Below are positions 1-43,728 of a DNA stretch of 43,728 nucleotides, in pieces. The first letter of the stretch is position 1. Each line of letters begins with the position of its first letter. The notes under the pieces were generated by a model. The model was not told the origin of the DNA and made no database searches. It saw nothing but the letters and a program-made list of their open reading frames with translations. The position numbers and the translations under genes are program-made. Origin of the DNA: a virus (lineage: Duplodnaviria > Heunggongvirae > Uroviricota > Caudoviricetes); IMG/VR virus record IMGVR_UViG_3300015181_000003, positions 1 through 43,728 of that record, one strand, 5' to 3'.

Positions 1-341
1 AATTTGTTAAACGCTTCCTTAGAGAAAGGCTCGTCGTCAAAGCTCCAGCCGTTTACGACTTCTGCCGCAAGTTGCCGGTTGAGGTCTTCCGCCAGTTCGT
101 TAACCGCCAGGTTATATTCAGTATAGTCACCAGATTCTTTGGCGGCTTTTTCCAGTTCTTCAAAACGCGCCAACCCGCGACGGTACGCAATAATGAAAGC
201 ACGCCCCGCTTTAACGGCGACATCCGCATCGGGACTTACAACGTTAAGCCACTCACCGGAGTCTTCGCCGTTTGGCAGCAGAATAGGCATCTTCTTGCCT
301 ACCAGTGCTTTCTCTTCGAAATAAAAATCAGAAAGTTTCAT
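1..341 (-). CDS. tail assembly chaperone (gpG-like), 5' portion; gene crosses the window junction
   Basis: Minus-strand ORF from ATG at 341..339 (AAGGA 7 nt upstream) runs off the window start. Because 1..141 repeats 43588..43728, it continues to a TAG at 43509..43511 (420 nt, 139 aa, in frame). Sits immediately upstream of the tape measure gene. Confidence 0.5.
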   Translation of the reverse strand, partial: MKLSDFYFEEKALVGKKMPILLPNGEDSGEWLNVVSPDADVAVKAGRAFIIAYRRGLARFEELEKAAKESGDYTEYNLAVNELAEDLNRQLAAEVVNGWSFDDEPFSKEAFNK

Positions 342-509: not shown

Positions 510-701
510 ATGTCCAGTTTACCAGTTTCCTTAATTCTGTTTGCACTGCTCGCTTATTTCGCGCCTTTCCTGGTCGCGTACTTCCGTAACCATAAAGCGA
601 AGTTAGCGATATTCATGGCTAATCTGTTTCTTGGTTGGATTCTGCTGCCGTGGGTCTTTATTTTAATCTGGGCGTGCAACTCGAATGTCAAAGAGAAGTG
701 A
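510..701 (+). CDS. small membrane protein, superinfection-immunity (Imm)-like
   Basis: 63 aa, two hydrophobic helices, motif NLFLGWILLPWVFILIWA resembling the Imm family signature (recalled, not searched). Strong SD GAAGGGGG before ATG 510. Confidence 0.55.
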   Translation: MSSLPVSLILFALLAYFAPFLVAYFRNHKAKLAIFMANLFLGWILLPWVFILIWACNSNVKEK

Positions 702-739: not shown

Positions 740-1870
740 ATGGCCCAGAAGAAAATAACCGACGAGCAGTTACAGGAAGAATTGAACGCCGGAACAAAGA
801 TTATCGACATATCCCGTAAATACGGCATCTCAGACCGCGTTATTCGTATCCGTAAAGCGAAGCTGGCGAAGAAAGGCGTAGGTCATGGTCGTGATGTTAG
901 TCACCTTGTGCCAGACGGCTACAAGATTAAAGGAACGTCATCACTGGTGGACGAGTTCGGCAACACTAAGCTGCAATGGGTTAAGACCGACACCGATGCG
1001 GAACGTCAGGTCGAGTTAATGAAGGCCATAATCGAGGGCATGAAGTCGGAGATTACCCCCGTTGCTCCTGTTAAAGCCGTTCGCGCCAAACGGGACGACA
1101 AGCTACTCAACCTTTACACTGTGTCTGATTTCCATCTCGGTATGCTGGCCTGGGCCGACGAGAGTGGCGACGACTGGGATATGAAGATTGCAGAAGACCT
1201 GTTCTCCCGTTGGTTCGATGCGGCATTCCAGAAAGCACCGGATGCGGGGACTGGGGTTATTAACCTGCTGGGCGACTTCGCGCACTTCGATAGTCTGGTT
1301 GCCGTTACACCTGCAAGCGGTCACGCCCTTGACGCTGACACCCGTTACCAGAAACTTGTCCGCTACATGATTCGCATGCTCCGCCGTGTTGTCGATATGG
1401 CGCTGGTTAAGCATAAAAATGTTCGCTTGCTTATCGTGCAAGGGAATCACGACGAAAGTGGCATGATTTGGTTGGCTGAGATGTTCAGTACGCTGTATGA
1501 CAATGAGCCGCGTGTGTTCGTCGATACGTCACCGGATGTTTACAAGATGGTGCAACACGGCAAAACGACGCTGTTCTTCCATCACGGGCATAAAGCACGA
1601 TTCGACGCTATTGAACCTGTTATGATTGCCAAGTTCCGTAAAGCGTTCGGCGAGAGTGTTTACAGCTACGCCCACGTAGGCCATCTGCACCACCAGAAGA
1701 TTGTAGAAAGCCGTAACATGATTGTTGAGCAACACCGCACCTTAGCGGCTAAAGACGCCTACGCCTCTCGCGGCGGATGGATGTCAGGCCGTAGTGCGAA
1801 TGTAATTACTTATAGCGCCGAATATGGCGAGGTAGCACGTTTAACTATTTCACCGGAGATGCTTGGATGA
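740..1870 (+). CDS. HTH-domain protein fused to calcineurin-like metallophosphoesterase (Mre11/SbcD-like or phosphodiesterase-like)
   Basis: 376 aa. N-terminal HTH-like segment (KIIDISRKYGISDRVIRIRKAKL). Metallophosphoesterase motifs in order: SDFHLG (DxH), GDFAHFD, GNHDE, HHGH, GHLHH. SD GAGGAAG before ATG 740. Confidence 0.7.
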   Translation: MAQKKITDEQLQEELNAGTKIIDISRKYGISDRVIRIRKAKLAKKGVGHGRDVSHLVPDGYKIKGTSSLVDEFGNTKLQWVKTDTDAERQVELMKAIIEGMKSEITPVAPVKAVRAKRDDKLLNLYTVSDFHLGMLAWADESGDDWDMKIAEDLFSRWFDAAFQKAPDAGTGVINLLGDFAHFDSLVAVTPASGHALDADTRYQKLVRYMIRMLRRVVDMALVKHKNVRLLIVQGNHDESGMIWLAEMFSTLYDNEPRVFVDTSPDVYKMVQHGKTTLFFHHGHKARFDAIEPVMIAKFRKAFGESVYSYAHVGHLHHQKIVESRNMIVEQHRTLAAKDAYASRGGWMSGRSANVITYSAEYGEVARLTISPEMLG

Positions 1871-2097
1871 CTTCAAAATACAACCGCACAATGACAAACA
1901 CTCACGGCAGCACTATGGCAGTAGACGTTTATGACGTGCTACGCGCTTTCGACATCCGCGACCCTGCGTTGCAACACGCATTGAAGAAGCTACTGTGCAT
2001 GGGCCTTCGCGGGCACAAAGACACCGGAACCGACTTAGCGGAAGCAATTGAAAGTCTGGAGAAGTTACGGGAGTACCGGAGTAATATTGATGAGTGA
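1867..2097 (+). CDS. hypothetical protein (76 aa), coupled to upstream gene
   Basis: ATG overlaps the stop of 740..1870 (ATGA); followed directly by a terminator hairpin. Confidence 0.45.
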   Translation: MTSKYNRTMTNTHGSTMAVDVYDVLRAFDIRDPALQHALKKLLCMGLRGHKDTGTDLAEAIESLEKLREYRSNIDE

Positions 2098-2100
2098 GAA

Positions 2101-2124
2101 AAAGGCCCCTTTCGGGGCCTTAGT
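2101..2124. terminator. rho-independent terminator hairpin (bidirectional)
   Basis: Stem AGGCCCC / GGGGCCT with loop TTTC, T-rich on both sides; lies between convergent genes ending at 2097 (+) and 2126 (-). Confidence 0.6.
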
Positions 2125-20667: not shown

Positions 20668-20952
20668 TTATTGGTGTTTGTATTGTTGCATCTCCTGCAG
20701 CGCGGAGAATGCTTCAATAACTCCGTTAGCCTTTAGCCAGTGGTACACGAACACATCGCTCGGAGACGGCGCTCCAAGAATCCCGACGATATTTAGGTGT
20801 GACACTAACCCTTCAATTTCGCGCATGGAATAAATATCATGCGAACGACCGCTTTCAAGGGTTAGTGTCGCGTCACTGAATGGCGTGCCGTCGGTATGAC
20901 CTACGCCTGTCATGAAGCCGCGTAAGAATTCTATCTTCTCTCTGTCTGTCAT
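20668..20952 (-). CDS. hypothetical protein (94 aa)
   Basis: Track ORF; ATG preceded by a GGAGA SD. Confidence 0.45.
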   Translation of the reverse strand: MTDREKIEFLRGFMTGVGHTDGTPFSDATLTLESGRSHDIYSMREIEGLVSHLNIVGILGAPSPSDVFVYHWLKANGVIEAFSALQEMQQYKHQ

Positions 20953-25624: not shown

Positions 25625-26140
25625 ATGTTAGACCAATTCTTAAAATTACTGGAACGTTTCGTAGTCGCACATGAACTGATTGCTGCGAATAGTTCGAAAC
25701 AAGTTGTCGTCGCCGAAGTAGATGGGTTAACCGCAGAGACTAAAGCAGACGTAGTTCGTTCCGTTGTAAAAGCTGAAGAAACAAAAGAAATCCCAGTCGA
25801 AGGTGAAGACCCAGTCGAAGGTGAAGACCTTGTTGACACTAAACCGGCAGAAGAAGAGAAGCCTAAACGCAAGCCGCGTAAAGCTAAAGCCGAGGAACCG
25901 ACGCCAGAACCGGAAGAAGAGAAAGAAGAAGTCGATTATCAGTCTCTTCGTGACCAGATTCAGGCTATCGACGATGCGATTAACGAAGGTCCGAGCGATG
26001 CCGCATGCGATGACTCCGATGAACTGCTGGAAGAGTTCACTGGTAAGAAGATGAAGATTGCCGCGATTAAAGACGAAGACCTGGCTGAATACCTGGAACG
26101 CCTGACGGCAATCAAGAACAAGTATTTCGAAGAAGAATAA
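25625..26140 (+). CDS. acidic low-complexity protein (171 aa)
   Basis: GGAGGAG SD; Glu/Asp-rich with PVEGED x2 encoded by an 18-bp tandem repeat at 25793..25828. Confidence 0.5.
   Translation: MLDQFLKLLERFVVAHELIAANSSKQVVVAEVDGLTAETKADVVRSVVKAEETKEIPVEGEDPVEGEDLVDTKPAEEEKPKRKPRKAKAEEPTPEPEEEKEEVDYQSLRDQIQAIDDAINEGPSDAACDDSDELLEEFTGKKMKIAAIKDEDLAEYLERLTAIKNKYFEEE
25793..25828 (+). repeat. 18-bp perfect tandem repeat x2 (CCAGTCGAAGGTGAAGAC)
   Basis: Two exact adjacent copies inside the coding region of 25625..26140. Confidence 0.8.
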
Positions 26141-28706: not shown

Positions 28707-29181
28707 ATGGAACATATAAAAGATTTTCTAAGCTACGACCGAGAGACAGGGGTATTCACGTGGATACAGCCTACTTACCGTCGAGGGCGACCGGGAGACA
28801 TCGCGGGGTGCATCAATAGTAGTGGATACTGGCGAATTCCGTACATGGGTCGATATTACATGGCGCACAGGCTAGCGTGGTTTTTCGAGTATGGTGAATG
28901 GCCCGAAGGCCCTCTTGACCATATAAACCGTGACAGGTTAGACAATAGGATTTCTAACCTAAGGAAAGCAACAACCGCTGATAATGTGCGAAACGCTAAA
29001 AATAAGGGAGCTAGAACAGGAGTTAAGGGGGGTAGTTAAAAACGGCAACCGATTTTACGGGCGTGTGCATTTTAACTACAAAAGTTATAACGCCGGTAGC
29101 TACGGAACTCTTGAAGAAGCAGAAAGCGCTGTAAAGAAATTAAGAGAAAAACTGCACAAGGAATTTTATTGCCATGACTAG
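28707..29181 (+). pseudogene. HNH-AP2 homing endonuclease, split by a frameshift in a G6 run
   Basis: Frame 1 (28707..29039) carries the HNH motif YMAHRLAWFFEYGEWPEGPLDHINRDRLDNRISNLR. Frame 2 (28984..29181) carries an AP2-like domain GVVKNGNRFYGRVHFNYKSYNAGSYGTLEEAESA. Frames switch at GGGGGG 29027..29032; one extra G would fuse them. Confidence 0.55.
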
Positions 29182-32080: not shown

Positions 32081-32272
32081 ATGAAATACGAATATGACCG
32101 CAAACCAGCACGTGACATCGTACCTGGCGACATGATTTTCAACGTTAAAACACGTCGTCCTGTTGCCGTTGATACGGTGTTCGTCGAGTCGAACTGTAAA
32201 CTGGTTATCGAAGATGTAACTGGTAACGTTACGGCGTTCGGGCGTAAAGAGCTGGTTTTGGTGGCGAAATGA
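32081..32272 (+). CDS. hypothetical protein (63 aa)
   Basis: AAGGAA SD; its stop overlaps the methyltransferase start. Confidence 0.4.
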   Translation: MKYEYDRKPARDIVPGDMIFNVKTRRPVAVDTVFVESNCKLVIEDVTGNVTAFGRKELVLVAK

Positions 32273-33072
32273 ACTATTACAACGAATGGGATAAAGGTGC
32301 AGCCGCGTGGCTACGTGAATTAATAAAACAGGGCCACATACCTTTTGGGGTTGTAGATGAAAGAAGCATTACCGAAGTTAAGCCAGAAGACCTTGACGGG
32401 TTCACCCAGTGTCATTTTTTCGCTGGTATCGGCGGCTGGCCTCTCGCGCTCAGACTTGCGGGAGTTTCGGAAGATACGCCTTGCTGGACGGGAAGCCCGC
32501 CTTGCCAACCGTTTAGCGCGGCGGGAAAGCAACTCGGACAGTTCGACCCGAGACACCTCGCGCCAGTCTTCCTCGACCTCATCAGCGAGTGCCGCCCTCC
32601 AGTCCTCTTTGGGGAGCAGGTTGCGCCAGCAATTGCAAAATCGTGGATGTGCGATTTACAAAATCGCCTGGAAGGAGAAGACTACGCCGTCGGGTTTGCC
32701 GTACTCCCAGCTTGTGGCGTCGGTGCCCCGCACAAACGCGACAGACTGTTCTTCGGCGCGTACAACCTGGCCGAGTCCTTGTGCGCAGAACGGGGCCGTG
32801 AACGGCTACACGGATTGGGAAAAAGTAATCAAACGCAAGGAAGCAGGACGGCAGCAGAACCTACAGGACGTTGTGATTCTGGCGGTTTCTGGTCAGATGC
32901 TGATTGGCTCGGATGCAGGGACGGAAAATTCAGGCCAGTTAAACCCGGCACATTCCCGCTGGCTAATGGGATACCCGCCAGAGTGGGACGATTGCGCGGT
33001 TATGGCAATGCCATCGTCCCGCAAGTAGCCGCTGAATTTATAAAGGCATTCATGGGGGCGGTCAATGAGTAA
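32269..33072 (+). CDS. DNA (cytosine-5)-methyltransferase
   Basis: 267 aa with motif I FAGIGG, motif IV PPCQPFSAAG and C-terminal GNAIVPQV. Confidence 0.7.
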   Translation: MNYYNEWDKGAAAWLRELIKQGHIPFGVVDERSITEVKPEDLDGFTQCHFFAGIGGWPLALRLAGVSEDTPCWTGSPPCQPFSAAGKQLGQFDPRHLAPVFLDLISECRPPVLFGEQVAPAIAKSWMCDLQNRLEGEDYAVGFAVLPACGVGAPHKRDRLFFGAYNLAESLCAERGRERLHGLGKSNQTQGSRTAAEPTGRCDSGGFWSDADWLGCRDGKFRPVKPGTFPLANGIPARVGRLRGYGNAIVPQVAAEFIKAFMGAVNE

Positions 33073-34724: not shown

Positions 34725-36947
34725 TTAAAAGGAGGATACACAGTCCAGAACGCCATTTAGCATATGTACAAACTGGAATAGTTGCGTTCGAGTAGTAGTT
34801 TTACTTGTACCGTCCGCAAAACGGAACCTTACACCATCACTACCAACCAGGTTACCTATCGTAATACCTGACGGTACGCGTAGTGTTACTGTAGCCCCTA
34901 CCGGAACATTATATATACCATTTATCTGCGTAGTCCCCGATACGTTTATAATCATGGCATCCGATATCCATAGTGGCGTCATTGTGTTCGCGGCGGTGAT
35001 ATTTTGTTCTGTAAACACCGACCCTGACCCTGCGCTATCCGCGGTGTTGTTCTTAAAGTACCCTGTTGATATAGCGGTGATACTCTGACCGGTACTGGCT
35101 CCATTAACCTGGTTGCCCATTACGCGGGCACTTGCAGTGCAACGTATGCCGTAACCGGCGGACATAGTAACTTTGTTATTGATAACGTCAGTGTCGTAGC
35201 TTGCACTACCAGATACGCTTATACCCGTACCACTTGCAGCAGTCGACGAATCAATAACGTTACCCTGTATAAGTGAATTTTGAAGCCCTACTGCGGATAT
35301 ACCCGCAACAGAAGCATAAATAGAATTACCTGTAACCCTAAGGTACTTATGTGCACCTGATGATGCGGAGTCTTCCAATAACACCCCCTGTGTACCTGTC
35401 AGGCTGCAATCTATACTATTGTTAATTATAGCAACACGCGTAGAGGTTCTAGCTCTCACCCCGGCTCTGGAGCATCCACTTATACGGTTGCTGTCAACAA
35501 TAGAGTCAGTCCCATCAAGGATAATCCCATTAGAGCCACTGGTAGAAATAACGTTGTTAGCTATGATAAAACCCGTTACCGACCCGAAACCAATGCCAGC
35601 GGGCGACAATGTGCCAAAGTTATTAGTGTTTACACAAACGTTGTCTATGATATTCCCACTTATAACATGCGACCTGACATTTTGACCGTATATCCCCGAC
35701 CCATGAGTATACGGCGTCGATGGAGTTGCTGAGTTATAAAAGGTCCCATACACATCCTTGATTGTGTTGTTGCTTATCACCACATTATACAAGGACGCAC
35801 TAGACCGGTAACTTATAATTCCGTAGGAACTGCACCCTTTTATATCGTTCTCGGTGACGGTTATGTTAAAGGAGTCGGTATCACCAGAAACATTCTGAAG
35901 CATAACCCCATGCCCTACATTTCGGCAGGTATTACCCTTAACCAGCACATCATGCGCAAAGTCTACAAAAATAGCATTAGGACTCGCTACTGTAGATGAG
36001 GTCTGCGCCGTACTGGCATCGTAGCTTCCGTCGGTAGAGTAGTAACCATTAACAACCTTCACATCTGAAGATTCTGCCGTAACCAGTACAGAAGTTCCGA
36101 TACTTGACGTGTAACTTTTAATACCATCAATTACCACTCTGGTACTGTTACTGATAAGAACATTACAAGACAAGGTGCTAGACCCAGGGTTGCTAGCCAA
36201 ACTACGAGAAACTTGAATCCCTTTAATGGTTACATTATCTACACCATGTACCTTTAAAACCGCGTCTGTTTGGTTGGTGGATGTAATTTTACCCGGGCCG
36301 AAAATGTACGTATCTGATAGTACTATAAGCGGGTTTTGTACGGTATAAACACCATCTGGTACGTATATATAGCCTTTATTGTTCAGAGCACTTTGGATAT
36401 ATGCCGTCTGGTCCCCGGAAGCCCCAGCGGTGGCCCCGAAGTCAGTGATACTAATAGCCTCCTGGAATTTTTCGTGAGCCGTCCTTCCCACCGCACCATC
36501 TGCCACTATCTTGACACCTATTAAGTTGTCCCCCAGTAGTGCGTCTGATGTGCTGGCCAGGTCCTCACGCAAATCAGGGTCTGTCTGAGGCCCCCAGTCC
36601 GCATTACCGACAGGGTTAAACCCCGCCGGAACTATCACCGGCAGCGAGCCAGTGTACGAGTACCACGTTTTACTTACGGGGTCGTAAACAACTTTGTCGC
36701 GGTCGTTAACTGTTAGCGTCCCGCCGGTAGAGAAATCCCACGATACAGGAGAAAAGCCGGAGTCACGCAACACGGCGGGAAGTGTCTTCTGAGTCTGCCC
36801 GGTAACCTGGTTGGTGGCGTAATCAATATCCGCGCCACTGGCAACACCACCGGACTTGCCCGTGATAACCTCGGCTTCGAAAATCTGGTGTTTCTTGGCG
36901 GTTTGTAAATCCGCCAGACTTAAAACGTCACCGCATCCGCTTGACAT
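34725..36947 (-). CDS. tailspike protein with right-handed beta-helix (pectate-lyase-like depolymerase) region
   Basis: 740 aa, last gene of the tail operon; ITDFGATAGASGDQTAYIQSAL motif and many Asn/Gly/Ser/Thr-rich beta-helix-like repeats. Confidence 0.65.
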   Translation of the reverse strand: MSSGCGDVLSLADLQTAKKHQIFEAEVITGKSGGVASGADIDYATNQVTGQTQKTLPAVLRDSGFSPVSWDFSTGGTLTVNDRDKVVYDPVSKTWYSYTGSLPVIVPAGFNPVGNADWGPQTDPDLREDLASTSDALLGDNLIGVKIVADGAVGRTAHEKFQEAISITDFGATAGASGDQTAYIQSALNNKGYIYVPDGVYTVQNPLIVLSDTYIFGPGKITSTNQTDAVLKVHGVDNVTIKGIQVSRSLASNPGSSTLSCNVLISNSTRVVIDGIKSYTSSIGTSVLVTAESSDVKVVNGYYSTDGSYDASTAQTSSTVASPNAIFVDFAHDVLVKGNTCRNVGHGVMLQNVSGDTDSFNITVTENDIKGCSSYGIISYRSSASLYNVVISNNTIKDVYGTFYNSATPSTPYTHGSGIYGQNVRSHVISGNIIDNVCVNTNNFGTLSPAGIGFGSVTGFIIANNVISTSGSNGIILDGTDSIVDSNRISGCSRAGVRARTSTRVAIINNSIDCSLTGTQGVLLEDSASSGAHKYLRVTGNSIYASVAGISAVGLQNSLIQGNVIDSSTAASGTGISVSGSASYDTDVINNKVTMSAGYGIRCTASARVMGNQVNGASTGQSITAISTGYFKNNTADSAGSGSVFTEQNITAANTMTPLWISDAMIINVSGTTQINGIYNVPVGATVTLRVPSGITIGNLVGSDGVRFRFADGTSKTTTRTQLFQFVHMLNGVLDCVSSF

Positions 36948-36959
36948 ATAGAGTCCTCT

Positions 36960-39509
36960 TTAACTAAAACCGTTGCTGAATCCGTCGGAGAAACCGCTGC
37001 CGTATGGCGCGACGCCGTCGTATTTATAGAAATCTGCTTCGTAGTTAATACCGGTAATCTTAACTGTTCTGTCATCTCCCGGGTCAACTGTAGAAACAAG
37101 AATCATCTGGGCATTATGCCTTGCTTCGTTGCCGAATGAAAACTCAGTTTTTAGTGCACTATTCCCTGTGTAAATTGCCTCCTGCGGCGCGGATAACATA
37201 ATCACTTCACGGTCGTGGCTTCCAGGCACAACGGCAACACTTTGAACTCCGCCGTCTCGCTTCTTAAGGATGAGTGAATGGTCGTCTCCTGGTGTGAACT
37301 TAACCGGTTGTGATAACGTCAGAGTAAGGCCATTAACGGCGATTACATAGCCGTCTTGAGGGGCCATGCGCGGACCTTTTACCACACTTACCGCACGCCC
37401 AGGCATTGCAAAAATCCCTTCTTCTGTCGCCGTGAATGATACTGTTACCTTCTTCAACAGGTTTTTCTGGTAACGGCGGTATGCGGCCCAGTACGCCTGT
37501 CGATAATTGCGGATACCTTTAGAGTCGTACGTTTCAGTATTAACCCCGCCTTCGGCTGGAATACTAATAGTCTCTTTGACGTTAGTATCTGGGTCGATGT
37601 ATGAAAACTTGAGACTATCGTATACCTGGGCGTCGTTAAACGTGCGCGTCCACTTCTCCGTAGCGGTAGTTTTGCTGCGGTGGGTGAATACCATCTCGGG
37701 GCCAATCCGCGGGCGTTCAAAGTCCAGAAGAATATCCGCGCCTCTACGATATGGAGTGCAGAAAATTGCTTCCGCTATCGTAGTTACTATGTCCTGCATC
37801 GTAGTTTTATAGTCATCAAACGTGTAGCAAAACTCCCCCGCAGATGCGCTACCGAAATAACTCTCAATTTCGCTCTGTACCGCTAACAGTTTATCCATAT
37901 TTGCCGTTGTCAGATTCAAGTCCCCGACATCCTGGTCACGAGCAAGACGAATCAGCGACTGTACTGCTTGCGTGTTTGGCGTTCTTACGGAGTCAAAAAC
38001 ACCGTTACCGCGATACTTGTACACCATCTCAGTTACTACCATTCGTAGTTGTGGCTGTTTAACCTCTGCGGCCCTTGGTGTCTGTTTACGTGCGGAATGT
38101 ACGGTTGTTCTGTTGCCGTAGTTAGGTGTAGTATCGCGTATTTGCCCGTACAGGTTTATGTACGAAACCTCGTCCACTACCGTACCCTCGAAAGCAAGGT
38201 CCAGGTTTGTTACCCTGCGCGCCCGTACACGAACATTAGACGCCGATGGCAGGTCAGCATAGATTGTCACGCCAGTATAATCCGAGGAGCGCCCGGAGAT
38301 AGTGCCTTGCTTACTATATACAGGTCCGTAAGGCGTTCCTGTGTCGTCAAGTAACTGATACTGCAACTCGACGGTGACAGAGGCCCTTAGTTTACTGCCA
38401 TTGTCTTTATACATGCCATTGGCGGCGGCGATATTAGCAACGATGCGCTCTACTGGCAGACGGTTAAGCGTTGTCCAGTCGGTTAATGATTTATCATATG
38501 TGTTTGAGGGTGAAATCCACGCCTCATTGCCCTGTGTCAGCCGGGTAAAACCAGACGGCAACTTCTGCCATTCGGTGAGCATACCCCCTACAGCGACCCT
38601 AACCTCGAAATCATCGACGTAAGTAACTGTATAATTGCCGCTTACGTTGGCAACATCTTTTACCAGAATGAGATTGAAAACGGCTACATCACCAACTGAC
38701 AGAATTTCTGTAAACGCAGAATCCCCTGTTGCATCACGTACAATACCCGTCGCCCCTTGCAGCGATATCTCGCCGGTATCGCTTGGGTTTACTCTTATGC
38801 CATTTTGAGCTTTCAGTACCGCACCGTCTACTTCATTAGATGCGATGGTGATATACAACTTTTGGTCGATAGGTTCGCCGACAAGAAGTTGCGGAGAGCT
38901 TGTGTTATTGGGTGATGTGTACGGAGCGTACACAGCGACAGAGGTTCCGGTTATCTCCTGGACTTTGGTGTCACCGTCGGTGATGTTTTCCGCTCTAACG
39001 TCCAGATACCCGCGACCGGCATCATAGTAGCCGTACTCGATGATGCGGCCCGCGTTATCGAAAACCTTATAAGTGGTCATAAGGTTATTGGGTATCGTCT
39101 GCACGCGACCGCAGATGTCATAAGTTCGCTCGTATGGGCGGGCCTTGTTATTCCGGTCTGTCAGGCTGTTGTTCGGAGAGTCTGCTTGCTGGTTAGCGAG
39201 ATTGTTAGACGCACCCTTTGTTGACGGTGTGAGTAATTTAGCCAGCGGTTTAAGGATTATGCTGAACACTTTCATCACACCCTTGATAGCACCGCCGCCA
39301 GCGCCCTCGAGGATGTGGAAAACGGCATCCTGTTTTAACGCGTCGAAATTTTCTGTTACGTCGTTATCCTCTCCTATCTCTTCGAGGAAAACGCGAAACG
39401 GCACACCATCAGGGATATGGTTTACGACGAAATTCAGCGGCGAGTCGTTATGCCGTTTTTGTGAGAACGTCCCGTCTTCGTTGCGGGTGTAGTGGATGAC
39501 TATCGCCAA
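36960..39509 (-). CDS. central tail fiber / host-specificity protein (gpJ-like), TTG start
   Basis: 849 aa. The only in-frame start after the upstream stop is TTG at 39509, with AGGAG 8 nt upstream; overlaps the end of the K-like gene. Confidence 0.6.
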   Translation of the reverse strand: MAIVIHYTRNEDGTFSQKRHNDSPLNFVVNHIPDGVPFRVFLEEIGEDNDVTENFDALKQDAVFHILEGAGGGAIKGVMKVFSIILKPLAKLLTPSTKGASNNLANQQADSPNNSLTDRNNKARPYERTYDICGRVQTIPNNLMTTYKVFDNAGRIIEYGYYDAGRGYLDVRAENITDGDTKVQEITGTSVAVYAPYTSPNNTSSPQLLVGEPIDQKLYITIASNEVDGAVLKAQNGIRVNPSDTGEISLQGATGIVRDATGDSAFTEILSVGDVAVFNLILVKDVANVSGNYTVTYVDDFEVRVAVGGMLTEWQKLPSGFTRLTQGNEAWISPSNTYDKSLTDWTTLNRLPVERIVANIAAANGMYKDNGSKLRASVTVELQYQLLDDTGTPYGPVYSKQGTISGRSSDYTGVTIYADLPSASNVRVRARRVTNLDLAFEGTVVDEVSYINLYGQIRDTTPNYGNRTTVHSARKQTPRAAEVKQPQLRMVVTEMVYKYRGNGVFDSVRTPNTQAVQSLIRLARDQDVGDLNLTTANMDKLLAVQSEIESYFGSASAGEFCYTFDDYKTTMQDIVTTIAEAIFCTPYRRGADILLDFERPRIGPEMVFTHRSKTTATEKWTRTFNDAQVYDSLKFSYIDPDTNVKETISIPAEGGVNTETYDSKGIRNYRQAYWAAYRRYQKNLLKKVTVSFTATEEGIFAMPGRAVSVVKGPRMAPQDGYVIAVNGLTLTLSQPVKFTPGDDHSLILKKRDGGVQSVAVVPGSHDREVIMLSAPQEAIYTGNSALKTEFSFGNEARHNAQMILVSTVDPGDDRTVKITGINYEADFYKYDGVAPYGSGFSDGFSNGFS

Positions 39510-39865
39510 AATTCAATCTCCTGATATGTGTCGCGTAAATCGTCCAGGCGGTCAAGGCGCACTTGTCTGGACGCTAACTCGCAGTGGCTCACCATTCCAT
39601 CATAATACACGCCCGCATGCCACACTACACGCCCCCTGTGATAAGTGCCAAGCAACACCGCATCATAATTCTGCGGACTGGCGGCGCGTTCCAGACCTTT
39701 CGGGTTGGAGTGCCCTGCATCAAACGCCGAGGGTATCGCAGTTGGTGATGTTACATCGAAAGATGGTGTTTATAGGCCAACATCACCGCGCACCCTGCGC
39801 ACGTGATGCCAACAATTGTAGCGACGGAAGTCATAAGGGAGCCCCGTATAGTCAGTGATATTCAT
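39500..39865 (-). pseudogene. tail K-like NlpC/P60-type protein interrupted by an in-frame TAA
   Basis: ATG at 39865 overlaps the upstream stop (ATGA). Frame reads 31 aa (MNITDYTGLPYDFRRYNCWHHVRRVRGDVGL), then TAA at 39770..39772, then 89 further codons in the same frame with NlpC/P60-like His region VVWHAGVYYDGMVSHCE, ending TAG 39500..39502. Confidence 0.5.
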
Positions 39866-40377
39866 GACAAAAGTACCCCACGCAGCAGCGGAATTTCTTC
39901 CGGTGTCATCAGGATTCCGGTCTGCCGTTGGTTGAGCATAGGTGTTCCTGTCTCTGCGGTGAACACGCCTTTTTCTTGCGTCAACGTCTGCAACTCGTAT
40001 ACCACCGGGCCGTCGCACGGGTACGACAGGTCTGTGCTTACATAACGGCGGAATATGAATTTTGGTAACTCTGTATTGCTGTACGGGATGCGGTCCATCT
40101 CTTCATCGAGAATGTTAAGAACATCCGGCAGCGAGAACGAGGCTGTCTGGTCCATGTCATTATTGTTTGCTGCGTTCTTGGCGTCCATGGGCGTGGCCTC
40201 GAACGTAACAGTTTCGCCAGTTTCAAGAGTAGCGGTAAGGTCAGAAGTACCGCGCACAAGTAACCACCGCTTCGAGAGAAGCGGGTGTGTTATTTCGAGC
40301 GTAATGTAGTCCAGTTCGCCGTCTGGGTTAGATGCCAGTTTACGGCGATAGGCGGCTTCTACTGATTCCTGACTCAT
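39862..40377 (-). CDS. minor tail protein
   Basis: About 171 aa from ATG 40377 overlapping the upstream stop; located between tape measure and tip genes. Confidence 0.45.
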   Translation of the reverse strand: MSQESVEAAYRRKLASNPDGELDYITLEITHPLLSKRWLLVRGTSDLTATLETGETVTFEATPMDAKNAANNNDMDQTASFSLPDVLNILDEEMDRIPYSNTELPKFIFRRYVSTDLSYPCDGPVVYELQTLTQEKGVFTAETGTPMLNQRQTGILMTPEEIPLLRGVLLS

Positions 40378-40868
40378 TGCATTGGGTCCCAAATTCGTGG
40401 AAACGTTGATTGCGCGGCTCCGTATGCCTTAAGGAAACCGCCTAAGCAATCCCCATAGCAGCCGAACAAATCCGGTAGATTCTTCGTAAGACATGTGTCT
40501 TCCTGAATCGCTGTGCGTTCTGCTGTTGCTGTGAACGTAATCACCCAGTTCTTGCCATCGTCGGTGCTGTCGCTAATAGTTGATGTGATGAGTACCTGGT
40601 GGTCCTCGATGCCCATACCCGTATCGTGTGGCATGATGAAAGACGATGCGCCGCCGTCGATGTTGTTCAGGAAGCTATAGAAAGCCTGACGCCCGAGAGA
40701 AGACACGACGAGCGTAACGCTAATCGGCACCGGTTCAAAGTACGTGTCTCGCCCCTGACGGGGTAGGCCACCCTGAACCTCGGTGCGCCAGATATTACTC
40801 CCCCTTGTCTGAGAGTAGCCCTTCGACACTATAGGGCGAAGGGACATAGGGAATCTCAAATCGCTCAT
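40374..40868 (-). CDS. minor tail protein
   Basis: 164 aa ORF starting 4 nt after the tape measure stop. Confidence 0.45.
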   Translation of the reverse strand: MSDLRFPMSLRPIVSKGYSQTRGSNIWRTEVQGGLPRQGRDTYFEPVPISVTLVVSSLGRQAFYSFLNNIDGGASSFIMPHDTGMGIEDHQVLITSTISDSTDDGKNWVITFTATAERTAIQEDTCLTKNLPDLFGCYGDCLGGFLKAYGAAQSTFPRIWDPMQ

Positions 40869-40871
40869 TAA

Positions 40872-43151
40872 TTAGTACCCCGGCTGACCGCGAGTAGAGC
40901 GGCGAGCTTTAGAAATCGGTGAGTTGTTGTCCTGTAACTGCGACGCTACTGTTTCACTGATTATAATACGTAACCGCCCTTCGTCATCACGTTCTGTTAC
41001 AGCGGAATCAACGCGTCCGGTGGTGTTGTTGACGATTGTCACGTTATCGCCGCCGGACGGGCCGCCGTTTTGCCCCATAATCTCTTTCATCTGCTGCGCT
41101 GTGCGGACACGCGATGCGCCCGCCGGCATGATAACTTCTGGTTTACCGCGTTCCGCTATAGTTGACATCTGGCCCGCTGATAACTGACCACCCTGCTCGC
41201 GTGCCGAGCGGATTTTGGCGATATTAGCCAGCCCCGCAGCAACGGCGGTAGCCGCGGCAACCGGTGCCAGGAAGGGGCCGACAACAGGGATAGCAGCCGT
41301 TGACTTATACGCCTCGATAGCCGATGTGTATGTTGCGATAGTGGCCTGGGCAATAGCGAACGCCTTGTATGCGGAGGACGCCTCGCCAAATGCCGTTTTA
41401 GCATTAGCTGCCATGTCACCGAAAGAACTACCTAAAGCATCGGCGCGCTTCGCGGCATACTGCTCATTGATAGCGTTAAGCGCCGCCTGATACTGTTCCT
41501 CGTTAATCAGCCCCTGTTCGCGGTATTTATCTGCGACCGCCAGCTTCTGCTGTTCCTGGATGTCGAGAAGCTCAAGCTCAGCGGCGTTCTGACCCATAAT
41601 CTGAGCCATGAAGTCGTCGCCTTTCTGTTGCTTTTCCTGGGCTTCTTTCTGGCGTTTATCCAGTTCATCTTGTCGGTTTTGCCCGGCTTCGAGGACAATA
41701 GCCGTTTTTGCTTGCTCGTATTCTTTCAGAGACAACGCGCCCTGGCTGTAGAACTCTTTTGCTTTAGCCAGTTTCTGCTGTTCCTGCGCATCGATAGCTT
41801 TTAACTCGTCGTTATTCTGGCGGGCCAGAGTATCGAGATAATCTTGCGCCTGTTTACGCAATTGCTCCGCTTTCTTGGCGGCGGCTTTCGCGTCTTTGTC
41901 GTTGGTGTTTCCTGTTCCACCGGCCCCGCCAGTTCCCCCCTTTCCGTCAACAAGGCTGGCCAGGTCAATTTCTTGCTTCTTGCGCTCGTTGTACTGCTTG
42001 CGCTGTTCCTCAATTTCTTTCTTACGCTGCTTAGACCTGTTGGTAATGGCCTGGGATTCTGCTTCTGCACGTTTTATGCTGGCGTCGTATGCGGCGTCAG
42101 CCTCCGCGGTCAGGTTTTTAAATGTGAGCGCTGCCGTTTTGCTAGGGTCGAACACGTCGGCAAGGGTCTGTCCTAACGCTACGGCGTAATCGTCAATGCG
42201 CTGGAACCACGCAATAACCTCGTGGAATGTCTGCTGAATGTCGGGCAACCACTCTCTGATAGCGTCAGGGATAGCTCCCAGCGAGTCTGACATGTCCGCG
42301 GATTTGTCCTCGGTGTCGTATGCCAGGTCATTCAAGGCGTCAGAAATAAACTTGAACGACTCATTGAACAGCGTCGCCCAGTCCTGGAGTGTGGAGGCTA
42401 TCTCATTAGACGCGATGGCGTCGGTGAGTGCGGTGATAGCGTCTTCCGCTGTTGCTGCTTGTTCACCTACCGCGTCACCAAAACCAGACTGTGCTACGGC
42501 AAGAACAAGGCCGTCGAAGGAGTCGGCGAGGCTCGACAACTGACCATCTAAGGTCTTCGAACGCGTCTCCATCGCTCCGGCGAAATCAGTGTTGCCGATG
42601 TTTAGCAGGTATTTCTGAATCTCTTCGGAGTTCTTCTTAACCGTGGTCGTTACGCCACGGAACGTAAACGAAACTGTATCTGCCTGCTGTGACGATTTAA
42701 TGCCAAACTCTTTTAAGCGCTCAAATTCAAATGTACTGGCGTCCGCCACGGCCTCAATCATCTGATTAAGGTCTTTACCCATCGCCGCGGCGGTGTTGCC
42801 GTAGGAAATTAATGCTTCTTTGCTGGGGTTTAGGCCGAGAGCTACAAGTTTTGTGAAACCCTCTACCGCCTGATTGAGACCGTACGGGGTTTCTTTTGCG
42901 AACTGTTGCAGGACGCTGAAAGCCTTAGCCGCGTTCTCAGCACTCCCGGTCATTGTGATGAGGCCGGAGTTCAGCTTATCGAAATTGCGCTGAGAGTCCA
43001 CCAGCGCACTGAACACCTGCTTAGCGGTTTCCAGGCTGACAACGGCGGCAGCCGCAGCACCTGCGGCTTTAGTAAGCCCGTTCAGTTGTGATGTGACTTT
43101 ATCGACGCCGGTTGCGGATACTCGTACTATCAAGCTAGCGATATCAGCCAT
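40872..43151 (-). CDS. tape measure protein
   Basis: About 759 aa from ATG 43151 (track start 43166 is TTG); long Ala/Gln/Glu/Lys-rich coiled-coil; follows the chaperone genes. Confidence 0.8.
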   Translation of the reverse strand: MADIASLIVRVSATGVDKVTSQLNGLTKAAGAAAAAVVSLETAKQVFSALVDSQRNFDKLNSGLITMTGSAENAAKAFSVLQQFAKETPYGLNQAVEGFTKLVALGLNPSKEALISYGNTAAAMGKDLNQMIEAVADASTFEFERLKEFGIKSSQQADTVSFTFRGVTTTVKKNSEEIQKYLLNIGNTDFAGAMETRSKTLDGQLSSLADSFDGLVLAVAQSGFGDAVGEQAATAEDAITALTDAIASNEIASTLQDWATLFNESFKFISDALNDLAYDTEDKSADMSDSLGAIPDAIREWLPDIQQTFHEVIAWFQRIDDYAVALGQTLADVFDPSKTAALTFKNLTAEADAAYDASIKRAEAESQAITNRSKQRKKEIEEQRKQYNERKKQEIDLASLVDGKGGTGGAGGTGNTNDKDAKAAAKKAEQLRKQAQDYLDTLARQNNDELKAIDAQEQQKLAKAKEFYSQGALSLKEYEQAKTAIVLEAGQNRQDELDKRQKEAQEKQQKGDDFMAQIMGQNAAELELLDIQEQQKLAVADKYREQGLINEEQYQAALNAINEQYAAKRADALGSSFGDMAANAKTAFGEASSAYKAFAIAQATIATYTSAIEAYKSTAAIPVVGPFLAPVAAATAVAAGLANIAKIRSAREQGGQLSAGQMSTIAERGKPEVIMPAGASRVRTAQQMKEIMGQNGGPSGGDNVTIVNNTTGRVDSAVTERDDEGRLRIIISETVASQLQDNNSPISKARRSTRGQPGY

Positions 43152-43476
43152 GGTTTCTACCTTCAAAGATTGCTTCTAAGCCCATGATAATGTCTATCTC
43201 GAACAGGCTAAGCTGTTTTTGCGTAACATCGAGATAGGCTTTCAGGTCTTGCCACGTAACAGATTCTCTTGCGAACAATACTACAGCGTCCTCGCGCACG
43301 TGTCGCGTAAACTTAATGTCGCAATACGTCTCAAAGGTGGATATAAAAAGGGGCGGGCATTCTGGCCCACCCCGTCGCGCTGCACGTTTTTTCTTATCGA
43401 TTACACCCATCGCGATAAGCGCCTGTTCGTGACCGTCAGCTATAGAATCAAACTCTCTGATTTTATGCTTATCCAC
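43144..43476 (-). CDS. tail assembly chaperone T segment (probably expressed as a G-T fusion by -1 frameshift)
   Basis: No ATG start (track start is GTG). This frame stays open upstream to about 43533 and overlaps the last 22 nt of the gpG-like ORF in the -1 frame; its stop overlaps the tape measure start. Confidence 0.5.
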   Translation of the reverse strand: MDKHKIREFDSIADGHEQALIAMGVIDKKKRAARRGGPECPPLFISTFETYCDIKFTRHVREDAVVLFARESVTWQDLKAYLDVTQKQLSLFEIDIIMGLEAIFEGRNHG

Positions 43477-43508: not shown

Positions 43509-43728
43509 CTACTTTTCCTGTAATGCCTTGCGCTCAGCGTTATGGAACGCCGCCACCTGGGTTCCAAGCCCTTTGAACTGGTCTAGCAATTTGTTAAACG
43601 CTTCCTTAGAGAAAGGCTCGTCGTCAAAGCTCCAGCCGTTTACGACTTCTGCCGCAAGTTGCCGGTTGAGGTCTTCCGCCAGTTCGTTAACCGCCAGGTT
43701 ATATTCAGTATAGTCACCAGATTCTTTG
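43509..43728 (-). CDS. tail assembly chaperone (gpG-like), 3' portion
   Basis: Continuation of the ORF starting at 341 across the junction; 43588..43728 duplicates 1..141; stop TAG at 43509..43511. Confidence 0.5.
   Translation of the reverse strand, partial: KESGDYTEYNLAVNELAEDLNRQLAAEVVNGWSFDDEPFSKEAFNKLLDQFKGLGTQVAAFHNAERKALQEK

What the first reader, a model, noticed from the sequence alone, without database searches (positions are those of the whole stretch)
39500..39865. Tail K-like (NlpC/P60-type) gene interrupted by an in-frame TAA
The ORF that starts by ATGA overlap with the upstream minor tail gene reads 31 codons, hits TAA at 39770..39772, then continues in the same frame for 89 codons carrying the His-containing half of an NlpC/P60-like fold. 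This could be a sequencing error, a genuine nonsense mutation in a dispensable tail-tip enzyme, or stop-codon suppression or readthrough.
Basis: seen in the sequence. Interest (0 to 1): 0.55.

Follow-up and report, generated by a model that had tools for sequence, protein, structure and literature searches.

The report
One-base stop in tail peptidase gene
The in-frame TAA really is in this copy of the phage genome, but an otherwise identical public contig reads TCA (serine) there and no relative examined (about 100 read codon by codon) has a stop, so it is an ordinary one-base error or a short-lived knockout, not a recoding signal.

The parts
39500..39865 (-). 121-codon tail-tip gene with an NlpC/P60 fold, at the K-like position, interrupted at codon 32
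39770..39772 (-). In-frame TAA at codon 32
   Evidence: Relatives have TCT/TCA/TCC/TCG (Ser), CCT (Pro), TAT/TAC (Tyr), GAA/GAG/GAT/GAC, GCN, AAA and others at this codon.
39771..39771 (.). The single variant base: T on the + strand in the window, G in public contig ENA ERZ27315466 k141_25491 (coding strand A versus C, TAA versus TCA)
39773..39865 (-). The 31 codons before the stop, carrying the invariant catalytic Cys18 (39812..39814) and most of helix 18-28
39503..39769 (-). The 89 codons after the stop, carrying invariant His83 (39617..39619) and His94 (39584..39586). The first in-frame ATG/GTG/TTG start after the stop is the GTG at codon 69 (39658).
39862..40377 (-). Upstream 171-aa DUF1833 / PHROG 396 minor tail gene (L-like position). 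Its TGA overlaps the ATG of the interrupted gene.
36960..39509 (-). Downstream 849-aa J-like tail-tip gene. Its TTG start lies 10 nt inside the end of the interrupted gene and has its own AGGAG 8 nt upstream (39518..39522).
   Evidence: The exact protein is on record on one public contig only.
25666..25666 (.). The only other difference from the public contig: C in the window, A in the record. It is synonymous (GTC/GTA, Val14 of the 171-aa gene at 25625..26140).

Best explanation
The TAA is an unprogrammed one-base change (coding strand C to A, TCA Ser32 to TAA) private to this copy of the genome. I think the base is most likely wrong in this copy, through a base-call, consensus or later alteration, and the phage really encodes the intact 121-aa protein found in the otherwise identical public contig. 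Shown: the window equals that contig apart from two bases; Ser or another sense codon sits at this position in every relative; the gene is conserved and under selection; there is no recoding machinery. Inferred: the intact protein is a small NlpC/P60-fold cysteine peptidase with a Cys18-His83-His94 triad. It occupies the place of lambda gpK and RcGTA g14 in the tail-tip module, between the DUF1833 L-like gene and the J-like gene. It probably helps tail-tip assembly and/or cuts peptidoglycan at entry. If the TAA is read literally, translation ends after 31 residues, the catalytic Cys is separated from both His, and no functional product is made.
For: The rebuilt public contig and the window differ at 2 of 43,728 bases, and 39771 is the one that makes the stop. 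No exact match to a stop at this codon in IMG/VR, JGI metagenome or GTDB genome contigs. The 31-aa and 52-aa products of the broken allele are on record nowhere. The J-like, DNA polymerase and portal proteins of the window are each on record on that one contig only, so the window is very probably a copy of it. The gene is uninterrupted in the public contig, in all 18 other relatives read at first and in 80 of 80 IMG/VR loci. 494 of 497 phage records match over at least 80% of the protein. Of 106 homologue clusters, 103 are 118-127 aa and 3 are partial. Median dN/dS is 0.067. Both differences from the public contig are transversions, against a natural transition:transversion ratio of 2:1 in this lineage, which is a weak hint only. 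Null alleles of the analogues are assembly-defective: RcGTA g14 deletion gives heads without tails (PMC7296036) and lambda gpK is required for tail assembly (PMC12617516).
Against: No reads are available, so the base cannot be checked directly. The window is not a naive copy of the record. It starts at a different point of the circle and carries its own 141-nt overlap, as an independent MEGAHIT assembly would, and it has a second, synonymous difference. That pattern also fits a real sister genotype. MEGAHIT consensus errors are uncommon at normal coverage (my own knowledge, not tested here).
Confidence: 0.58

Rival explanations
1. Genuine, very recent nonsense allele. A sub-population of this phage carries TCA to TAA, which knocks out the tail peptidase. 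It would persist briefly by complementation from co-infecting wild type, or because the enzyme is only conditionally needed.
For: The different rotation with a regenerated 141-nt overlap, plus an independent synonymous difference, look like a separate assembly of a near-identical genotype. TCA to TAA is a single step. The rest of the gene shows no decay at all, as expected for a very young mutation.
Against: No relative examined is interrupted: 19 distinct gene copies, 80 IMG/VR loci and 103 full-length homologue clusters. dN/dS is 0.067. The analogous genes are needed for tail assembly. The stop separates Cys18 from His83 and His94. No second contig with this genotype is on record.
Confidence: 0.34
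2. Functional readthrough or suppression. The TAA is decoded at a useful rate by a host ochre suppressor or by leaky termination, giving a full-length protein. That could be enough if, like lambda gpK, the protein is needed only in small amounts.
For: Position 32 tolerates almost any residue: S, T, P, D, E, A, K, R, F, Y, Q, I, L and M are seen. It lies in a region the model leaves without regular secondary structure, between helices 18-28 and 41-53. Lambda gpK is not detected in virions (PMC10721106).
Against: No tRNA gene in the window. TAA terminates 30 of 73 genes, and the same TAAA tetranucleotide terminates 12 of them. No significant RNA structure around the stop, z = -1.1. The identical sequence context carries a sense codon in the public contig, and no relative has a stop here, so nothing has evolved around a stop.
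Confidence: 0.03
3. A naturally split gene. Two separate polypeptides (31 aa plus a re-initiated C-terminal piece) reassemble into an active enzyme, or TAA is reassigned in this phage.
For: None beyond the open frame on both sides of the stop.
Against: Relatives have one 121-codon gene, never two. The first in-frame ATG/GTG/TTG start after the stop is codon 69, which would omit helix 41-53. TAA is the ordinary terminator of 30 genes.
Confidence: 0.01

Closest known systems
Lambda tail assembly protein gpK
   Same: Same position in the tail-tip gene order: tape measure, M-like, L-like, this gene, J-like. It is a small non-abundant protein. gpK is required for tail assembly and is not seen in mature virions (PMC12617516, PMC10721106). 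From my own knowledge, gpK contains an NlpC/P60 domain.
   Different: From my own knowledge, gpK is about 199 aa and has an N-terminal MPN/JAB domain. This protein is 121 aa, is only the NlpC/P60 fold, and has no Pfam hit at all. No gpI-like gene lies between it and the J-like gene. No sequence-level link to gpK was tested directly.
RcGTA g14 (Rcc01697) tail peptidoglycan peptidase, and the peptidase of roseophage R4C
   Same: A small (150-aa) cell-wall peptidase encoded just before the large hub/'megatron' or host-specificity gene, in a module that also contains a DUF1833-type protein. It degrades peptidoglycan, probably sits as one copy inside the tail tip, and its deletion gives heads without tails (PMC7296036). 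R4C has an unmodelled peptidase near the tape-measure C-terminus (PMC10276861).
   Different: No sequence similarity was tested here. The hosts and lineages differ (alphaproteobacterial GTA and roseophage versus an enterobacterial Kagunavirus-like phage).
Cellular NlpC/P60 (C40) peptidoglycan endopeptidases: MepS, LytE, CwlO, Acd24020
   Different: Only 18-23% identity to these four. Below detection by Pfam PF00877, NCBIfam and PDB sequence searches. No signal peptide or cell-wall-binding domains were seen. The activity is untested.
Classical ochre (TAA) nonsense mutants of phage tail genes
   Same: A single-base sense-to-TAA change truncating a conserved tail gene.
   Different: Those are laboratory mutants grown on suppressor hosts. 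Here the sequence comes from a metagenome assembly and the allele is unconfirmed.

Membership tests
NlpC/P60 (C40) cysteine peptidase superfamily | Papain-like alpha+beta fold: N-terminal helix carrying the Cys, followed by a beta-sheet carrying the His | tested here: met
NlpC/P60 (C40) cysteine peptidase superfamily | Conserved catalytic Cys at the helix start, a His, and a third polar residue (His, Glu or Gln) | tested here: met
   Cys18 (start of helix 18-28), His83 and His94 are invariant in 40 diverse homologues. Their spatial arrangement in the model was not measured.
NlpC/P60 (C40) cysteine peptidase superfamily | Sequence match to the family profile (Pfam PF00877) | tested here: not met
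   No Pfam, NCBIfam or PDB sequence hit even at lax thresholds. Membership rests on fold and motif only.
NlpC/P60 (C40) cysteine peptidase superfamily | Peptidoglycan-cleaving activity | not testable with these tools
   Needs a biochemical assay.
Lambda gpK-type tail assembly protein | Gene located between the L-like and J-like tail-tip genes, downstream of the tape measure gene | tested here: met
   Order on the minus strand: TMP 40872..43166, PHROG 384 gene 40374..40868, DUF1833 gene 39862..40377, this gene, J-like gene 36960..39509.
Lambda gpK-type tail assembly protein | N-terminal MPN/JAB domain fused to the NlpC/P60 domain | tested here: not met
   The protein is 121 aa, a single domain with no Pfam match. 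All full-length homologues are 118-127 aa.
Lambda gpK-type tail assembly protein | Required for tail assembly | not testable with these tools
   Only indirect: dN/dS 0.067 and universal presence.
Programmed stop-codon readthrough or suppression | Stop codon conserved at the same position in related genomes | tested here: not met
   A sense codon in the public contig, in all 18 other relatives read at first and in the 76 IMG/VR loci censused at codon 32; none of the 80 IMG/VR loci has any internal stop.
Programmed stop-codon readthrough or suppression | Suppressor tRNA, or depletion of that stop as a terminator in the genome | tested here: not met
   No tRNA genes. TAA ends 30 of 73 genes.
Programmed stop-codon readthrough or suppression | Stimulatory RNA structure or leaky context at the stop | tested here: not met
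   Fold z-score -1.1. The TAAA context is the commonest true terminator context in this genome.

The most novel reading that the evidence does not exclude
The TAA allele is real and the phage still makes enough full-length peptidase by low-level ochre readthrough at a residue-tolerant position, because the K-like protein is needed only in trace, sub-stoichiometric amounts. A milder version: a wild phage population carries a null allele of a tail-assembly gene at high frequency through complementation.
Probability: 0.04. Interest if true: 0.4.

Novelty: not a real feature. Interest (0 to 1): 0.07.

Why it matters
It matters little biologically. At most it would be a transient knockout of a conserved tail-tip peptidase in one metagenomic phage genotype. 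The practical value is as a caution: a single in-frame stop in a metagenome-derived phage genome should first be compared with near-identical public copies before recoding is considered. A side result is a fold-level annotation. The ~121-aa protein is found in about 500 deposited phage records (mainly Salmonella and Escherichia phages, including Guernseyvirinae), has no Pfam match, and is often annotated 'hypothetical protein'. It is an NlpC/P60-fold protein with an invariant Cys-His-His triad at the gpK / GTA-g14 position.

Tried and rejected
1. Suppressor tRNA: ARAGORN found none.
2. TAA reassignment: rejected, because TAA ends 30 of 73 genes.
3. Readthrough-stimulating RNA structure: z = -1.1.
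4. Other contigs with a stop at this codon: exact-pattern scans of IMG/VR, JGI metagenomes and GTDB genomes found nothing.
5. Looking up the broken allele's own products (31 aa and 52 aa) in the public gene index: not on record. The window's own variant could therefore not be traced to a sample.
6. Polarising the second difference (25666) with relatives: uninformative, because relatives carry a third allele, GTT.
7. Sequence-profile annotation of the protein: Pfam, NCBIfam and PDB sequence searches gave nothing. Only PHROG 329 and the fold search were informative.
8. A first look-up of the upstream gene from the mechanical TTG start failed. The ATG start used by the annotators worked.
9. A naive rotation of the public record gave 16,887 mismatches, until the 141-nt terminal overlap was taken into account.
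10. A literature search for Kagunavirus together with NlpC found no paper.
11. Translational bypass or frameshift: rejected, because the stop aligns to a sense codon with no insertion or deletion.

Full report
**The observation**

The genes in this part of the window run on the minus strand. Translating 39865..39497 gives MNITDYTGLPYDFRRYNCWHHVRRVRGDVGL*TPSFDV...QEIEFWR*. That is 31 sense codons, TAA at 39770..39772, then 89 further sense codons in the same frame, ending at TAG 39500..39502. The ATG shares the tetranucleotide ATGA with the TGA of the upstream gene.

**Context**

The window is a complete Kagunavirus-like (Guernseyvirinae) siphophage genome. Megablast finds Raoultella phage RP180, Escherichia phages SZH-1, HSE2, 26 and BUCT823, Shigella phage phiSD1 and others at 78-94% identity over this region.

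The local gene order on the minus strand is as follows:
- tape measure gene, 40872..43166;
- a PHROG 384 protein, 40374..40868;
- a DUF1833 / PHROG 396 minor tail protein, 39862..40377;
- the interrupted gene;
- an 849-aa J-like tail-tip protein, 36960..39509, matching PHROG 469 and 31 and weakly the Pfam GpJ FNIII-A domain;
- a beta-helix tailspike, 34725..36947.

Relatives annotate one intact 366-nt gene at this position.

**What relatives have at codon 32**

In nine aligned sequences the window alone has TAA. The others have TCT or TCC (Ser) or CCT (Pro). Among 22 loci holding the gene (19 distinct sequences) the census is TCT 12, TCA 4, CCT 3, TCC 2 and TAT 1. In 80 IMG/VR loci no copy has an internal stop. 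Residue 32 there is E, S, D, A, F, K, P, R or Y. A tblastn search matches 497 phage records, 494 of them over at least 80% of the protein. Of 106 homologue clusters in the 5.8-billion-protein collection, 103 are 118-127 aa and three are partial, 72-84 aa on short contigs. The gene is therefore never split in relatives, and position 32 is a hypervariable residue.

**The decisive result**

The exact 849-aa J-like protein is on record on a single public contig, ENA ERZ27315466 k141_25491. Its length, 43,728, equals that of the window, and a 121-aa product is called there at this position. That contig reads TCA (Ser) at codon 32 and is otherwise identical across the gene.

I rebuilt the whole contig from three further look-ups. 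It is a MEGAHIT-style circular contig of 43,587 unique bases plus a 141-nt end overlap. The window is the same circle started at record position 20756, with its own 141-nt overlap. Over all 43,728 positions the two differ at exactly two bases:
- 25666, C versus A. This is synonymous, GTC/GTA Val14 of a 171-aa gene. Relatives have GTT there.
- 39771, + strand T versus G. This makes TCA into TAA.

The products of the broken allele are on record nowhere. Exact-pattern scans for a stop at this codon found nothing in IMG/VR, JGI metagenomes or GTDB genomes. The TAA is thus private to this copy of the sequence.

**What the gene is**

Pfam, NCBIfam and PDB sequence searches give nothing. PHROG 329 'minor tail protein' matches at 1e-11.

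BFVD hits are also NlpC/P60 proteins. Cys18 at the start of helix 18-28, His83 and His94 are invariant. The 'NlpC/P60-type' label is supported at fold and motif level.

'K-like' holds for gene position only, because the 121-aa protein gave no Pfam match and so shows no MPN domain. Functionally the closest described analogues are these:
- Lambda gpK is required for tail assembly and is not detected in virions (PMC12617516 and PMC10721106).
- RcGTA g14 is a 150-aa peptidoglycan peptidase thought to sit inside the tail tip. Its deletion gives heads without tails (PMC7296036).
- Roseophage R4C has a similar peptidase (PMC10276861).

**Consequence of the stop if read literally**

Termination after residue 31 leaves the catalytic Cys on a 31-aa peptide and both His residues untranslated. 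The first in-frame ATG/GTG/TTG start after the stop is GTG at codon 69, which lies beyond helix 41-53. The allele would therefore be null. The downstream J-like gene has its own AGGAG 8 nt before its TTG, so it need not depend on coupling.

The gene is under strong purifying selection in relatives. Median pairwise dN/dS is 0.067, with 0.10 for codons 1-31 and 0.05 for codons 33-121. Together with the phenotypes of the analogues, this argues that a null allele is costly or lethal.

**Tests for recoding**

- No tRNA or tmRNA gene is present.
- TAA is the terminator of 30 of the 73 genes called on the public contig, and the same TAAA tetranucleotide ends 12 of them.
- The RNA around the stop folds no better than shuffles, z = -1.1.
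- The identical nucleotide context carries a sense codon in the sister contig, so nothing can have evolved around a stop.
- There is no insertion or deletion, so bypass or frameshifting is not at issue.

**Error or real allele?**

This cannot be settled without reads.

For an artefact of this copy:
- The window's large proteins map to only that one public contig, so the window is very probably derived from it.
- The allele occurs nowhere else.
- It would disable a conserved gene.
- Both differences are transversions, whereas natural divergence in this lineage runs 2:1 transitions to transversions, 1396:688. With n = 2 this is a weak hint.

For a real sister genotype:
- The different start point with a regenerated 141-nt overlap is what an independent assembly would give.
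- There is a second, synonymous difference.

My estimates are about 0.58 for an artefact, 0.34 for a genuine very recent null allele, 0.03 for functional readthrough or suppression, and 0.01 for a split gene or reassignment.

**Verdict**

It is not a recoding event or a new gene arrangement. Interest is low. The only lasting product is the fold-level annotation of this widely conserved small tail protein as an NlpC/P60-fold, gpK / GTA-g14-position peptidase.

Noticed in passing
window 1..141 and 43588..43728: The first and last 141 nt are identical. This is the k=141 overlap of a circular MEGAHIT contig, so the unique genome is 43,587 bp. The window starts at position 20756 of the public record ENA ERZ27315466 k141_25491.
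   Followed up: yes
window 25666: The only other difference from the public contig (C versus A). It is synonymous, in Val14 of an acidic 171-aa protein at 25625..26140. Five related phages carry a third allele (GTT) at this codon, so neither copy can be called ancestral.
   Followed up: yes
L001 (RP180, NC_048181.1) 1583..2101: RefSeq annotates the orthologue (HOV38_gp27) as 519 nt, from an upstream start that overlaps ORF26 by 157 nt. All other records annotate the 366-nt gene starting at the ATGA overlap. The 172-aa UniProt/BFVD entry A0A4D6DYC4 has the length this longer call predicts (not checked directly).
   Followed up: partly
L016 1612..2997, L017 1636..2997, L023 5896..6546: In two relatives the ~157-aa gene after the tape measure gene is replaced by a 453-461-aa gene. 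Another relative has an extra 216-aa gene on the opposite strand between the tape measure gene and that gene. These may be insertions or fusions in the tail-tip module.
   Followed up: no
window 34725..36947 (-), and the gene after the J-like gene in L009-L018: The gene after the J-like gene differs in family between near relatives (Tail_spike_N, Pect-lyase/NosD/Beta_helix, Phage_tail_beta). This suggests swapping of tailspike cassettes for host range.
   Followed up: no
window 39496..39858 (+): A 120-codon ATG ORF runs antisense across the whole K-like gene. With the sense gene broken, a gene caller might call it instead. Nothing suggests it is real.
   Followed up: no
BFVD entries A0A1W6DWW3 (41 aa, 85% identity) and A0A0K2FIB9 (100 aa, 56% identity); P0105 (82 aa on a 3,060-nt contig): A few deposited homologues are much shorter than 121 aa. 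They may be mis-called starts, contig-end truncations or interrupted copies in other phages.
   Followed up: no
window about 28707..29039, 32269..33072 and about 510..701: An HNH_3 endonuclease gene lies just upstream of the family-A DNA polymerase gene. There is also a C5 DNA methylase gene and a small Imm_superinfect (PF14373) gene. These come from the precomputed Pfam marks on the public contig.
   Followed up: no
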